Made by a program: the position numbers and the translations under genes. Of a stretch of DNA of 64,000 nt, positions 1,398 to 7,884 are shown one piece after another. Below the pieces are notes generated by a model. That model had not been told where the DNA came from. It ran no database searches and worked only from the letters and a program-made list of their open reading frames with translations. The stretch comes from the human T2T-CHM13v2.0 reference genome, Homo sapiens. Positions within the stretch are counted from its first letter, which is position 1; each line of letters opens with the position of its first letter. The DNA lies in the NCBI RefSeq assembly GCF_009914755.1, contig NC_060929.1; one strand, written 5' to 3'.

Positions 1398-1547
<150 letters not shown>

Positions 1548-1754
1548 CTATTAAAGTTTCACAGGTCTTCAAACATATTTTATAAGGACAGCCTCTGTCT
1601 TTGTTTCCGGTGGAATATAACCAAGACACCCACAGGTATTGCCTTGAGGGAATGTTCTTGCCTACATTGCCATTATGAGGTCGAGAGGTCAAAAACAACA
1701 AAAAGAGTCTCCCTTTTTCTGTTCAACAAACTGAAAACAGTGCAATAAAAAACC

Positions 1755-1930
1755 TTATTGCAGTATTCACATATAAAAAAAGTACACAAATCAGTGAACC
1801 ATTTAATAAATTTTTACAAACCAAGAACCTTTATGTAATCAGCTCTCAGATCAAGAAACAGAACAGTACCCCAACAGGCCCCCTTTCTGCCCAATTCCAG
1901 CCAGTACCCACCAAGGGTAACTACTTTTTT
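1755..1930 (-). mobile_element. Old L1 (L1ME-like) 3'-end fragment
   Basis: Antisense L1M 3' motifs such as cagatcaagaaacagaaca and ccaagggtaactact. Confidence 0.4.
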
Positions 1931-1965
1931 GATAAACTGTGTTTTACACAGTTTGATAGATTATG

Positions 1966-2270
1966 TTTTTTTATTTTTATTTTTTTGAGATGGAGTCTCG
2001 CTCTGTCGCCCAGGCTGGGAGTGTAGTAGTGTAGTGGCATGACCTCACTGCAACCTCTGCCTCCCAGGTTCAAGCAATTCTCCTGGCTCAGACTCCCGAG
2101 TAGCTGGGATTACAGGTGCACGCCACCACGCCTGGCTAATTTTTATATTTTTAGTAGAGACAGGGTTTCACCATGTTGGCTAGGATTGTCTCGATCTCAG
2201 GACCTCGTGATCCACCCGCCTCGGCCTCCCGATGTGCTGGGATTACAGGCATGAGCCACCACGCCCAGCC
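1966..2270 (-). mobile_element. Alu (AluS)
   Basis: Full antisense Alu; flanking atagattatgtttt / atagattgtgtttt TSD. Confidence 0.95.
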
Positions 2271-2963
2271 AATAGATTGTGTTTTAAACAAATAATAGTT
2301 TGGGGTAGATGGTTAACTGTATCAGGTTCAATTCTTTGTAAAGAATAGGCCACAAAATTGACCACTAGACTATAATTCACCTTTGTTCAGAGCTGCTCTC
2401 CAATGCCAAATATCTGTACCAGCTGTTTCAATTTCTTTTTGTACTCTATAAATATCCTAGCTTCTTTACTTGGACAGAAAATGGAAGCACTAACCCAATT
2501 CTATCCCCTATAAATCAAAAGTACGATCAACAGATACATCTATTGATGAAGTGGTTATAATACAAAAAAGTTATACCCTATAAGGAATCTCTAAATCACT
2601 GTCCTACAGTTACTGGAAGAAAAAAAGAAAAAAAATCACCCACTGCTAAAAATGAAAAATTCCAAAGTTTTGTTTATATCCAACTGAAATGTCAGGATGT
2701 GCACATTACGCCAATCTTGATTTCTTTATCCCAGGTATGTCTTGTGCACAGCTAAGACTCTGAGCTATAGGATCAGAGGCAATGTACCTTCATAAGTTAA
2801 AAATAGCCCTTTGTGGTTATTAGCATGAAGTTGGACAAGTCTATCTATCTGTTCCTTATCTATAAAATGAGGAGTTTTAACTAGTATTCACTATTTCATA
2901 ACACATGGCCACGTACAACTAATAGTCATTTCCTGTCAATCCATTCATTCATTCCTTGACTCA

Positions 2964-3360
<397 letters not shown>

Positions 3361-3487
3361 TAACTAATAGAAAGATGAGTCTTCAAGTCAGCTGAAATTT
3401 TGTGACTTTGTTTTGTTTATATGGTATTCATTTTTGTGGTTAAAGTCTATTTTTGGCAAATAATTCTGGTTTTCTATTTATGGTGGG

Positions 3488-3703
3488 TGTGGTAGCCAGC
3501 CTCCCAAGATGGCCCCCAGTGATCTCTGCCTCCTTGAATGCATGGTCTTGTGCAGTCCCTTTCCGTCCTTTACCAAGATTGGTCTGTGTGGCCAATAAAA
3601 TATGGCAGAAGTGATGGCATGTTACATGTGAAATCAGATAATAAAAGACAATAGTTCTGCTGCATTGATCACATACTCTCTTGGATCATTTGTTATGGGG
3701 GAT
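3488..3703 (+). mobile_element. MLT1F-like MaLR LTR, 5' part only
   Basis: Starts tgtggtagccagcctcccaagatggcccccagtgatc and contains tatggcagaagtgatggcatg, as in MLT1F-family LTRs. Confidence 0.7.
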
Positions 3704-4308
3704 GTAAATTATAATGCTACTCACGTTACTCCACAGAGACCACAAGGATGCCAGCTTTGGCTAGTGTAGTAGTCCCACCTATTGATTAGAGTCAAAAGTA
3801 AAGCCCACCCCTGCCTAGTGTAAAGCTCTGAATAAAGTGCAACAACTTGCTGATACCCATATTATACTATGCCAATTTTGAGGGATAATCTATAATTCTA
3901 GCAGGTATTAAGAATGGAGTGCTAAGTGTAAGATATTTTCAATTCACAATGGGTTTATCTGGAGGCAACCCCATTGTAAGTCGAGGAGCCATACTGAATG
4001 CGTATCACTTTCCCACCATCATAAAAGTTGAAAAATCGTTAAGTCAGGGACTGTCCGTATTATTATTATCACTGCATTTATATCGTGGAAATACTTAAGC
4101 AGTTAAGAAAGTGAGGAGTAAAGTGAGGACACGAAGACGCTTCTGTCTTCTGCGTATGTGTTAAGTAACATCCACTTTATTAGGAGCAATGCACAAAGCA
4201 GGGCTGGGCTTTACTTTTGACTCTAATCAATAGGTGGGACTACTACACTGGCCAAAGCTGCCATCCTTGTAATCTTTGTGGTGTAATATGAGTAATTTTA
4301 TAATTTGC
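3704..4308. repeat. Long inverted repeat: arms 3704-3839 and 4173-4308 (136 bp each), 333-bp spacer
   Basis: By-eye alignment is ungapped with about 20 mismatches; 3763-3807 is the exact reverse complement of 4205-4249 (45 bp). Confidence 0.95.
3929..4057. mobile_element. MER47/Tigger5-type MITE fragment
   Basis: gatattttcaa...atgggtttatc...aaccccattgtaagtcgaggagc and tactgaatgcgtatcactttc...aagtcagggactgtccg followed by TA. Confidence 0.7.
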
Positions 4309-4679
4309 TAATGTATTAAAAAGTAAAACAAAAGAAAATGACTCATCTAACTCTCATGGATATGCAAACACAACATGAGACAAATAATAATAATCCTCAT
4401 ACAGTGAATGAATAATTGTTTCTTTAAAAAATTAATATAATCAGAGCTTTAGGCCAAGCTACTTTCAAACTGCTTTAGAAATAACTAAATTATATGACAA
4501 TTTTTTTCCTAGAGGAGTCACTGGTAGTATTAGGACATTTTAGACTCTCTTCTAATAAATTTGCTATGGAATGAATTTCTCATTCTTTAGGGAGATAATG
4601 CTGTTGCCCTGTCAGCAGTCTGAATCCATAACAAAGTAAGATTTGTGTTAATACAACATTTATATAGTGAAATCAGTTT

Positions 4680-4892
4680 CTCTAAAATACCTTTCCTGAC
4701 CTCCTCAGGCCGAGTTTCTCTCTCCCTCATCTATATTATAATCTCTGTACCTTGTCATTGTTAACTCATCTTTCACTTCAGTGGAGTGTGACTTCCCAGA
4801 GGGTAAGGATCAGGTCTTATTGGTATTTATACCACTTAGCACAGTGCCCTGGCTTAATAGAAAAAAAAAATGAATAAGAAATGAAATGAATA
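4680..4892 (+). mobile_element. L2 3'-end fragment
   Basis: ...gagggtaaggatcaggtcttatt...cttagcacagtgccctggc...aatgaataagaaatgaaatgaat. Confidence 0.6.
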
Positions 4893-5313
4893 TCTTTTTT
4901 TTTTCCTGTCACAGTTCTCACTGTGACTCATTTTTGCCAGGCCAGTAAAGTTGGTGACTTTGAAACCTATTAGCTTATGGAAGTTAAAGCCCATGTTTCT
5001 AATACAATGAACATTATGTTATGCCCAAACTTAACACCATCATTTCATATGATAGCACTTTCTTATAGTGTTACCTTATGCTCCCTGACCAAACTCCCAG
5101 ACATCAACTTGTACTTTTCTATTTTATTCTAGATCTTTTTGTATTGTTGTTTTAAATACTTTCCTGCCCATTAGAGGACCTAGGAGCCACCCTCCTCTCC
5201 CCTCTTAACTGATATTTAGCCTTTCATGGGCTTTGCATATAATGGAAATTTCAAAATCCACCCTGAGAAATGAAAACCAAGTAGAGGAAAAATAAACTCT
5301 TCAAAACACACAC

Positions 5314-5316
5314 TAC
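5314..5316 (-). other. NR3C1: Tandem 5' splice site (GTAGT); use of the distal GT retains GTA and gives the GR-gamma isoform (+Arg)
   Basis: Minus strand GAAG|GTA|GTGTGT; joining GTA to exon 4 GACAG gives GGT AGA CAG = Gly-Arg-Gln, the known GR-gamma insertion. Confidence 0.9.
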
Positions 5317-5483
5317 CTTCCACTGCTCTTTTGAAGAAAACTTTACAGCTTCCACAAGTTAAGACTCCATAATGACATCCTGAAGCTTCATCAGAGCACA
5401 CCAGGCAGAGTTTGGGAGGTGGTCCTGTTGTTGCTGTTGAGGAGCTGGATGGAGGAGAGCTTACATCTGGTCTCATGCTGGGG
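5317..5483 (-). CDS. NR3C1: Glucocorticoid receptor exon 3 (first zinc finger, P-box), 167 bp
   Basis: ORF 5216..5476 gives [54 protein letters not shown], the GR sequence; acceptor TTCTTTAG|CCCCAGC at 5484/5483 and donor GTGGAAG|GTAGTG at 5317/5316. Confidence 0.98.
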
Positions 5484-7884
5484 CTAAAGAAGGGGAAGAA
5501 CAGTGTTATGATTTAACTGTCAAAGGAATATCAAAATACAGTTCTCTTAGCTTCTCACTTCATAGTCAGAATGCTCACAGTGAACTCTGGCTTCAGGTGC
5601 TAGCAGGCACTAAAATATCCTAGCTAAATATATTCAAATCATGTTATATTCTTCTTTAAACAAAATTAAGAATGAGGTCATTTCTTTTGAAGTGTCTCCA
5701 AAATAGAATGGTGTGGTTCTGGTTCACTTCTTCTTCTTTTTTTTTTTTTTTTTAGATGCTTAGGATTTATTTTTATAATCACGTTTATTAAGGTGTCACA
5801 TACAGTAACATTTACTGTTTTCTAAGTCTATAATTTATGGTTTTTGTTAAATGAATATTCATGTAACTACTATCACAATCAGGAGAGAGGATATTTCCAT
5901 CATCCCAAAAAGATGCCTCCTATGCCTTTAATTGCTTAGGCCATAATTTTTTTCCTAATTTTAAGATCTTATACAGGCATCTTTTAAAATTCAATCAAGT
6001 GTCATTACAATTCTACCCATGTTTCCTACTAGAGTCAAAATTTTTTTACAATCTTAAAGTTTTTGTCCCATGTCTCTAATTCCTAATGTCATCTTGGCTG
6101 AAACCACAATTTCATATGACTCAGAGAAGACTGATCCAGAAACATTTTCTATAACCTTCCTGTCTGGCTTGCAGTAAGATTGGACAAAGCACTAGGCTTT
6201 CAAAAGTGAGTTCCATTCTGCCCACTCCACTCTATGACTGTTTGGCTTGAAGAAGAAGACAGAAATGTGAATCTGCTTCTCTTACTAGGTCTCTAACATT
6301 TTTCATAGTCTCACCACAAAGAGTGCAGGTCTAGTGATTATTAGCTGTTTAAAAGATAATTTGTTGTTTTAAAAATTTTCAATCTCAAAAAAAATTGGAA
6401 AGAATTGTACAATGGATATATACTTTTCACCAATATTCACCAAGTCTTAACATTTTGCCACATTTAATGATAAAGATATATTTTTATAAACCAATGAAAC
6501 AGTGATCTTTCTATTACTGGAGGAAAAATTAATTATTGCATTTCATATTACATGACACAATGGTTTTCAATGTTGTATTTTCCTAAGGAATTTTCCTCTT
6601 ACGTGCTGACTTTAGAACCAAAACTGTATTATGCAGCTAAAATGATTTTGTAGCCTTCTGCTTGTAATTAGAGACTGCCCATTCCATTTTTGGTTGTGTT
6701 CTTAAGCAAATCTTCAAAAACATGGATGCTGGCAACCTGTTGATTCTGGAATTCTACATATTAAAGTCCGTTTTGCTTATCATCTATACAAGTTCATAAA
6801 TATACTAGTACCTCTCTCTAAACTTTTCTTAATTTGCCTTTTCTCTAAAAAAGATGGAACTTAGAAATAAACTTAAATTGGGTGTTCGTTGTCTCTGTTA
6901 TTCTTTATTATCTCTTGCTTTTATTTATTTCAGCCAATAACAGTAGTAAGTCTCAATTACAAATATGTTTAAACTAATTCACAGAGCAAAGTAACTTAAA
7001 ATTTTTTTCTAGTTATCAATCTGGTTAGAAATTACATTTATCAAGTAATGTAGTTTGTTGCTAATGTTCCGTTTAGGAATAAAAGTTAAAAGGTAATAAT
7101 AATGGAATGACAATTTCTTTTATAAATGTTACCTTAAGTAATTAAGCCAGTAAATCCAAACGATCGCCCTAAATTCTATCTTCAAATGAAGCTTCCTGAA
7201 TCTTGCCAACTGCCTGCTTACCTAACAGGCTTAGTCAATAGGACAGCATTCCCACCACCCTAATTCTGGGAAAAGGCCCCAGGGTTTCACATTGTTCTCT
7301 GAACACTGTTAAGAAGAATTTGTAGATGCTTCCGTATTACAAGGCATTCATTCCCTGCTAGATTTGGGCGAGTGGACTGACTACACGTCGAAAGCCTGTA
7401 ACAGAATAACCTGAAATGACTCTGCTGTAGGTCCGGCACAGGCCACCCCTGATTAATGGAAACTTGTGACTAATGTAGAGGAGCTGCTTTGGGCCAGAGT
7501 TTTCCAGAGAAGTAGGAAGGTCCTGGAACAGTGAATGGTGCGACAATGTGTTGGGGAAGCAAAAACTCCTCTGGCTTCTATTCTGAAGATACTCCTATTC
7601 TTGCTCAGCCAGTCTCTGTCACCTGACATCTATTTTTAGGGACCAAACAGTTGTTTGTATATTAGTTTACAGAAAACGAGTGCATTGTTTAAAGGTTAGG
7701 ACAGTATTCTGTAATGTTTACCCCATTAATTATATATACACACATATGCATATATAGTATGTATTTATATTTTAAATAATAGTTTGTAGTACTTCGTAGT
7801 TTTAGCTCTCAATAACCCTGTGAAAATGACATCATCACCCCTGGATGCGGTCATACGGGCCGTGGCAGGTGGTTCATCAGGGAG

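What the first reader, a model, noticed from the sequence alone, without database searches (positions are those of the whole stretch)
3704..4308. 136-bp inverted repeat with a 45-bp perfect core between the two zinc-finger exons
Seen: 3704-3839 and 4173-4308 align as reverse complements with no gaps and about 20 mismatches, but all mismatches lie outside a perfect 45-bp block (3763-3807 / 4205-4249), while the flanks are about 22% diverged. I do not recognise the arms as Alu, L1 or another common repeat. Inference: an old inverted duplication whose centre has been homogenised by arm-to-arm gene conversion, or kept paired by selection. In pre-mRNA it would form a long stem with a 333-nt loop about 1 kb downstream of the exon 3 tandem donor, a plausible non-Alu ADAR substrate or splicing structure; in DNA it is a candidate recurrent micro-inversion site. 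The mismatches show no G-U bias toward the transcribed strand, which fits conversion better than RNA-level selection.
Basis: partly seen in the sequence, partly recalled or inferred. Interest (0 to 1): 0.72.

Follow-up and report, generated by a model that had tools for sequence, protein, structure and literature searches.

The report
Old fold-back duplication in glucocorticoid receptor
An intron of the human glucocorticoid receptor gene holds a 136-base stretch copied back-to-front 333 bases away, likely left by an ancient replication slip and likely re-matched in its middle by later copying between the two copies; it is predicted to form an RNA hairpin but is probably an ordinary, functionless scar.

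Summary
The clustering exceeds chance (permutation p 0.003-0.014; 5 of 960 repeat-pair windows), though p is 0.036 if clustered mismatches count as single events. The arms match nothing else in the genome search.

New here: the left arm starts exactly where a 500-600-nt LTR-like repeat breaks off after about 215 nt, and the missing tail was not found nearby. The spacer holds the right part of a TA-flanked Tigger-type MITE. This anatomy fits a template switch that copied the right arm backwards and deleted the LTR tail, tens of millions of years ago. Later arm-to-arm copying likely homogenised the centre; a chr19 inverted Alu pair shows similar copying.

The predicted pre-mRNA stem is strong (z -21), but nothing supports a function: no G-U bias, more than 1 kb from splice sites, no entry in four variant or switch lists. 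No other species was available, so concerted evolution is untested. Verdict: real, explained, probably neutral.

The parts
3488..3703 (+). First ~215 nt of an LTR-like interspersed repeat (MLT1F-like MaLR LTR; name recalled, not tested), broken off at the outer edge of the left arm
   Evidence: 39 other genomic matches among 40 scored of 176 candidates; 7 of 24 fetched copies align up to 3700-3705 and none beyond; 18 of 24 still match 5 or more other copies 425 nt from their start
3704..3839 (+). Left arm; inferred derived (inserted) copy
   Evidence: only two genomic matches; abuts the LTR-like break
3763..3807 (+). Perfect 45-nt core of the left arm, inside a wider homogenised zone 3742-3814 (3 of 73 differ)
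   Evidence: pattern search with up to 3 mismatches finds only the two arms
3840..3923 (.). Unique spacer segment X
   Evidence: no other genomic match; none at E<0.1 in the window or the 30 kb before it; no similarity to segment Y in either orientation
3924..4059 (+). Right ~135 nt of a ~230-nt TA-flanked Tigger-type MITE with an internal palindrome (MER47/Tigger5-like; name recalled); left end missing
   Evidence: 46 other matches, 40 scored of 379 candidates; alignment of 25 of 29 fetched copies; profile positions 78-235 of 236 matched, E 9e-34
4060..4172 (.). Unique spacer segment Y
   Evidence: no other genomic match; none at E<0.1 nearby
4173..4308 (-). Right arm; inferred donor copy; 5' arm of the predicted pre-mRNA stem
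   Evidence: lies in unique sequence on both sides
4205..4249 (-). Perfect 45-nt core of the right arm
1529..5316 (-). NR3C1 intron between exon 5317-5483 (tandem donor; 5314 in other transcripts) and exon 1412-1528; host of the repeat
   Evidence: RefSeq table supplied with the finding; splice contexts and distances 1008 nt and 2175 nt

Best explanation
This is a single-locus inverted duplication in an NR3C1 intron, likely made by a replication template switch that copied 136 nt backwards and likely deleted the tail of an LTR-like repeat, with its middle likely re-matched later by arm-to-arm copying and likely without function. Shown: the arms, their uniqueness in the genome search, the LTR-like break at the left arm's edge, and the MITE piece in the spacer. 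Inferred step 1: the polymerase left its template inside the LTR-like repeat, copied 4308 to 4173 from the opposite strand, and resumed at about 3840 (four-point type 1-4-3-2 or its mirror 3-2-1-4, where the nascent strand folds back over a 333-nt loop). Inferred step 2: the arms diverged neutrally to 22-27%, about as far as copies of the LTR-like family differ from the window's copy (median 25%). At an assumed 1-2e-9 substitutions per site per year that is 65-130 million years. Inferred step 3: one or a few short non-allelic conversion or template-switch events reset 45-73 nt in the middle, within roughly the last 17-33 million years at the same assumed rates. The stem predicted in the pre-mRNA would be a by-product that ADAR may edit at a low level.
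For: The LTR-like match ends at 3700-3705 in 7 of 24 copies and never beyond, while 18 of 24 copies run on to at least 425 nt. The tail was not found in the window or the 30 kb before it: one 99-nt, 68% hit at 6377-6466 from 1 of 24 copies, in a part of that copy few others share; the other hits near the site were Alu inserts. A 2-3-nt microhomology is possible at the junction (weak). The arms are unique. Mismatch density falls towards the centre from both sides: 0 of 45 against 20 of 91, p 0.006; 5 of 960 in the empirical control. A comparator turned up among 57 other close inverted alignments in 260 kb: a chr19 inverted Alu pair with a 75-nt perfect run extending into unique flank. Type 1-4-3-2/3-2-1-4 events are the majority pattern and give single inverted repeats (PMC7954356, passages). 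Conversion rises with proximity, under 10 kb (PMC6598467, passage); it occurs between short paralogs, and rodent tract estimates are around 100 bp (PMC3924818, passages). No G-U bias.
Against: No outgroup sequence, so ancestral state, direction and dates are inferred only. The arms are shorter than the ~200-bp minimal efficient segment and near 80% identity, where conversion is reported to be much reduced (PMC3924818). Clustering is only p 0.036 if mismatch clusters are single events and up to 0.11 under strong block-wise rate variation, and the locus was picked by eye for its perfect core. Truncated LTR-like copies occur without inverted repeats (2 of 24 end by about 175-225 nt), so truncation itself is common and only its position is telling. 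17 of 24 copies stop aligning earlier (3612-3683). The MITE's missing left end need not belong to the event; several other copies lack it too.
Confidence: 0.67

Rival explanations
1. Same duplication, but no later copying: the perfect core is a chance gap in mismatches or a locally slow-mutating patch.
Against: Empirical control 5 of 960; 3 of 73 against 17 of 63 (post hoc borders); only 2 of 20 mismatches are CpG-related.
Confidence: 0.12
2. The homogenised tract marks a crossover between the arms that inverted the 333-nt spacer once or repeatedly (micro-inversion site).
For: Geometry allows it. All 59 human-chimpanzee micro-inversions of one study (17-33 nt) are flanked by inverted repeats (PMC8755829, first fifth of text). 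A central tract is what a crossover with conversion would leave (inference).
Against: No entry in the T2T inversion table of PMC10150506, the human-chimpanzee list of PMC1270012 (recalled hg17 place), the event table of PMC7954356 (recalled GRCh38 place) or the held part of PMC12350169's supplement (file cut). These lists are weak for inversions of 0.3-0.6 kb.
Confidence: 0.1
3. The core is kept paired by selection as an RNA duplex in NR3C1 pre-mRNA (ADAR substrate, control of the GR-alpha/GR-gamma donor choice, or masking of an intronic AAUAAA).
For: Predicted stem -261 kcal/mol, z -20.9; the only long inverted pair in this intron. 45 contiguous pairs exceeds the median of edited dsRNAs (31; unedited 17) in a genome-wide survey (10.1101/2025.01.24.634786, passages). 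One AATAAA on the transcribed strand (4181-4176) lies inside the stem.
Against: No G-U excess (5 against 7) and equal duplex energy on both strands (-193 against -195). 1008 and 2175 nt from the splice sites. GR-gamma is described as constitutive, about 10% of transcripts in all tissues and conserved through mammals (PMC4881047, passages). In the same survey conserved dsRNAs are short and weak, and 4,597 of about half a million non-repetitive predictions are edited on both arms. AATAAA occurs 6 times in the intron. No Rfam match but a chance-level one (E 0.49). No paper held all five editing terms with NR3C1.
Confidence: 0.07
4. The arms are the long terminal inverted repeats of an unrecognised, very old DNA transposon, or two insertions of one old repeat.
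For: The genome search is a loose first look that misses copies much below 70% identity, and Dfam was not available.
Against: Only two matches genome-wide; no target-site duplication visible at the outer edges (sequence); the LTR-like element does not resume after 4308 as it would around an insertion.
Confidence: 0.04

Closest known systems
Short-range template switch, four-point types 1-4-3-2 / 3-2-1-4 (Walker et al. 2021, PMC7954356)
   Same: One reverse-complement copy of nearby sequence replaces a deleted stretch and leaves a single inverted repeat with a spacer.
   Different: Larger (136 nt copied, probably 300 nt or more lost) and far older than events modelled among great apes, so closer to FoSTeS/MMBIR (recalled); not in that paper's event table.
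Non-allelic gene conversion between nearby repeats (neighbouring Alus; Y-palindrome arms; PMC6598467, PMC3924818, PMC3723533 listing only)
   Same: Close copies made locally identical; short tract; inverted geometry.
   Different: Arms are unique sequence, only 136 nt long and 85% identical, below the usual efficiency thresholds; palindrome arms are kilobases long and over 99.9% identical.
Non-repetitive intronic long dsRNA, ADAR substrate class (dsRNAscan, 10.1101/2025.01.24.634786)
   Same: Predicted stem of about 136 pairs with 45 contiguous pairs in an intron.
   Different: No editing or duplex data seen; far more stable than the conserved dsRNA class of that survey.
Micro-inversions flanked by inverted repeats (PMC8755829, PMC1270012)
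   Same: Spacer flanked by inverted repeats.
   Different: No inverted allele or species difference found in the lists searched.

Membership tests
Template-switch inverted duplication | Reverse-complement copy of nearby unique sequence | tested here: met
Template-switch inverted duplication | Copy inserted at a break with loss of the original sequence | tested here: met
   LTR-like match ends at 3700-3705 and the tail was not found nearby
Template-switch inverted duplication | Microhomology at the junctions | tested here: inconclusive
   2-3 nt possible at the outer junction, chance level; inner junction cannot be judged
Template-switch inverted duplication | Ancestral state shown by an outgroup | not testable with these tools
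   the genome has no relatives held
Non-allelic gene conversion tract | Run of identity longer than random scatter of mismatches gives | tested here: met
   p 0.003-0.014, 0.006, 5 of 960; weakest case 0.04-0.11
Non-allelic gene conversion tract | Lineage-specific changes shared by both arms (concerted evolution) | not testable with these tools
   needs primate and mammal orthologues
DNA transposon with long TIRs | Further copies of the arms in the genome | tested here: not met
   2 matches only; sensitivity limited
DNA transposon with long TIRs | Target-site duplication, and host element resuming beyond the far end | tested here: not met
Selected RNA duplex / ADAR substrate | Stable long stem on the transcribed strand | tested here: met
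   prediction only
Selected RNA duplex / ADAR substrate | G-U or energy bias towards the transcribed strand | tested here: not met
   5 against 7; -193 against -195 kcal/mol; low power
Selected RNA duplex / ADAR substrate | Editing sites, duplex reads, covariation | not testable with these tools
   no REDIportal, PARIS or alignments; literature search empty
Polymorphic or fixed micro-inversion | Inverted allele in humans or apes | tested here: inconclusive
   no entry in four supplements; lists weak at this size, two searched by recalled coordinates
MLT1F-type LTR and MER47/Tigger5-type MITE (names of the two neighbouring repeats) | Match to the library consensus | not testable with these tools
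   names recalled; PMC5753468 lists the names only; multi-copy status and MITE ends shown

The most novel reading that the evidence does not exclude
An accidental fold-back duplication was co-opted as a long non-Alu RNA stem between the two zinc-finger exons of the glucocorticoid receptor. Kept paired by arm-to-arm conversion, it is edited by ADAR and tunes GR-alpha/GR-gamma donor choice or hides an intronic polyadenylation signal in the lineages that carry it.
Probability: 0.06. Interest if true: 0.7.

Novelty: new member of a known kind. Interest (0 to 1): 0.27.

Why it matters
As most likely true, it is a neat small case: a break in an old repeat shows which arm is the copy, and a 136-nt, 85%-identical pair appears to have exchanged sequence below the usual length and identity thresholds, which primate alignments could date. 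It sits in a major drug-target gene and is predicted to be the only long duplex in that intron, so a look-up in editing and long-read data is cheap. It would matter much more if it altered GR isoform output or flipped in people; nothing found suggests either.

Tried and rejected
Rfam scan of 3300-4800: one chance-level GcvB match, E 0.49. Searches for further copies of the arms, the core and segments X and Y: none. A sequence-only model of the two arms was never run on the genome, so very distant relatives are untested. Extension of the repeat into the spacer or outer flanks: no similarity, shuffle p 0.31-0.95. CpG decay as cause of the mismatch pattern: 2 of 20. Partner for the arms in another intron (circRNA-type pairing): none in the window or the 30 kb before it; the gene beyond the window's end was covered only by the genome search. 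Insertion of the whole 605-nt unit into the LTR-like element: rejected, the element does not resume. Variant and switch lists: no entry. Literature searches for this repeat listed no paper that describes it by title or abstract start; subscription papers are not covered. Rivers et al. 2009 on intronic motifs for GR-gamma splicing was seen only as a reference and could not be read. The base rate for such repeats rests only on the 260 kb already held, which is not a random sample.

Full report
Observation. The repeat is there as described: 3704-3839 against the reverse complement of 4173-4308, 136 nt without gaps, 20 mismatches, a perfect run of 45 nt at 3763-3807 / 4205-4249, and a 333-nt spacer. 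Similarity drops to background outside these limits, and neither the spacer halves nor the outer flanks align. It is the only long inverted pair in this intron. Mismatches per 20 nt fall from 8 at the outer end to 0 in the middle and rise to 5-6 at the inner end.

Is the core more than chance? Random placement gives a run of 45 or more with p 0.003-0.014 over five boundary choices, and a change-point scan gives p 0.006. Among 960 windows of 136 columns with 17-23 differences between unlinked repeat copies (mostly Alu, not independent), 5 had such a run. Against this, merging neighbouring mismatches into 12 events gives p 0.036, simulated block-wise rate variation gives 0.01-0.11, and the locus was chosen by eye. 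CpG decay explains only 2 of 20 mismatches. I take the core as probably real homogenisation, not proven.

What the arms are. Genome searches with the left arm, with 4050-4600 and with the core as a pattern (up to 3 mismatches) return only the two arms. The tool warns that its first look is loose, so a very old, highly diverged family is not excluded. Rfam gives nothing.

What surrounds them. First, 3488-3703 matches a dispersed LTR-like family (40 scored of 176 candidates; MLT1F-like by recall). Of 24 fetched copies, 18 still match five or more others 425 nt from their start, whereas the window's copy ends after about 215 nt: 7 of 24 align to 3700-3705, none beyond, and 17 stop earlier at 3612-3683. 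The break coincides with the first base of the left arm. The tail was not found in the window or the 30 kb before it; one weak hit from 1 of 24 copies at 6377-6466 comes from a part of that copy few others share. A 2-3-nt microhomology between the element's continuation and the donor side of the right arm is possible but at chance level (13 of 24 copies inspected). Second, 3924-4059 is the right part of a ~230-nt TA-flanked Tigger-type MITE (profile positions 78-235 of 236; MER47/Tigger5-like by recall). Its missing left end is not diagnostic, since other copies lack it too.

Mechanism. The simplest reading is one replication accident: synthesis left the template inside the LTR-like element, copied the 136 nt of the right arm from the opposite strand, and resumed at about 3840, losing the element's tail. 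In the four-point scheme this is 1-4-3-2 or its mirror 3-2-1-4, the majority pattern among great-ape events, which yields single inverted repeats (PMC7954356, passages). A version in which the spacer was inverted in the same event cannot be told apart without an outgroup. The flanks differ by 22-27%; the window's LTR-like and MITE copies differ from their best genomic relatives by a median 25% (24 copies) and 19% (29 copies), figures biased low because these are top hits. So the duplication is about as old as these repeats: 65-130 million years at an assumed 1-2e-9 per site per year. At those rates a 45-nt block identical in both arms was last reset within about 17-33 million years (95% bound). 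Holding 90 positions unchanged by selection for the whole period would need extreme constraint; one or a few short conversion or template-switch events suffice. Conversion is favoured by proximity (PMC6598467, passage) and occurs, at low rate, between short or ~80% identical paralogs, with rodent tract estimates around 100 bp; the same review puts the efficient minimum near 200 bp, which counts against frequent events here (PMC3924818, passages). A comparator turned up in the 260 kb held: of 58 close inverted alignments, 57 involve multi-copy repeats and only the NR3C1 pair is unique; one of the 57, an inverted Alu pair on chr19 with a 153-nt gap, has a 75-nt perfect run reaching into unique flank. 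Arm-to-arm copying at close inverted repeats is therefore not peculiar to this gene. That sample is small and chosen for repeats, and includes overlapping alignments.

RNA reading. On the transcribed (minus) strand the stem is predicted at -261 kcal/mol, z -20.9, which follows from the repeat and says nothing on function. With 45 contiguous pairs it resembles edited dsRNAs (median 31, unedited 17), so low-level ADAR editing is plausible; but 4,597 of about half a million non-repetitive predictions are edited on both arms, conserved dsRNAs are short and weak, and NR3C1 is not named in the text (10.1101/2025.01.24.634786, passages; its supplements are closed and may list this site). There is no G-U or energy bias to the transcribed strand. 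The stem lies 1008 nt from the donor and 2175 nt from the acceptor. GR-gamma is described as a constitutive ~10% variant conserved through mammals (PMC4881047, passages), which does not call for a lineage-limited distant hairpin. The paper on its intronic motifs could not be read.

Inversion reading. No entry lies at this place in the T2T inversion table of PMC10150506 (3 supplements searched, Table S1 of 375 rows), in the 4,016-row event file of PMC7954356 (no chr5 row beginning 1433; one large file unreadable), in the human-chimpanzee list of PMC1270012 (8 supplements) or in the held part of PMC12350169's supplement (file cut when stored, one file unread). The GRCh38 and hg17 places rest on recalled coordinates, and these lists are weak for events of a few hundred bases. 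PMC8755829 (first fifth read) deals with 17-33-nt events.

Comparison and novelty. It works like a template-switch inverted duplication followed by non-allelic conversion; the tests possible here are met and the decisive cross-species test is open. It is not a transposon's TIR pair by the tests run. Searches listed no paper describing this repeat (listings only; subscription journals not covered). PMC5753468 and PMC1914374 (passages) give family names and place most Tigger activity after most MER1 activity, but do not identify these copies. PMC3723533 was seen as a listing only.

Verdict. Real, probably undescribed at this locus, of a known kind, likely neutral. Interest 0.27; a functional RNA stem has about 6% probability and would deserve 0.7.

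Noticed in passing
L051:2029-2406 and 2560-2942 (G000:C19:47094271-47095184): Inverted Alu pair with a 153-nt gap. The Alu bodies differ at many positions, but about 90 nt of unique flank beyond the Alu ends is nearly identical (75-nt perfect run), which looks like a recent template switch or conversion that extended the repeat; candidate polymorphic site.
   Followed up: partly
window 3227-3282: Tandem duplication of 28 nt (27 of 28 identical) at the end of an Alu-like piece, about 200 nt before the LTR-like fragment.
   Followed up: no
window 4176-4181 (minus strand), partner 3831-3836: An AATAAA on the transcribed strand lies in the 9-nt perfect block at the inner end of the stem, with U/GU-rich sequence downstream; one of 6 such hexamers in the intron.
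   Followed up: partly
window 3924-4059 and loci L004-L032: The ~230-nt MITE family carries an internal palindrome of about 60 nt per arm; many copies, the window's included, have lost part of it or a subterminal repeat.
   Followed up: partly
window 6377-6466: 99-nt, 68% match to a part of locus L046; probably another old repeat, not the missing LTR-like tail.
   Followed up: no
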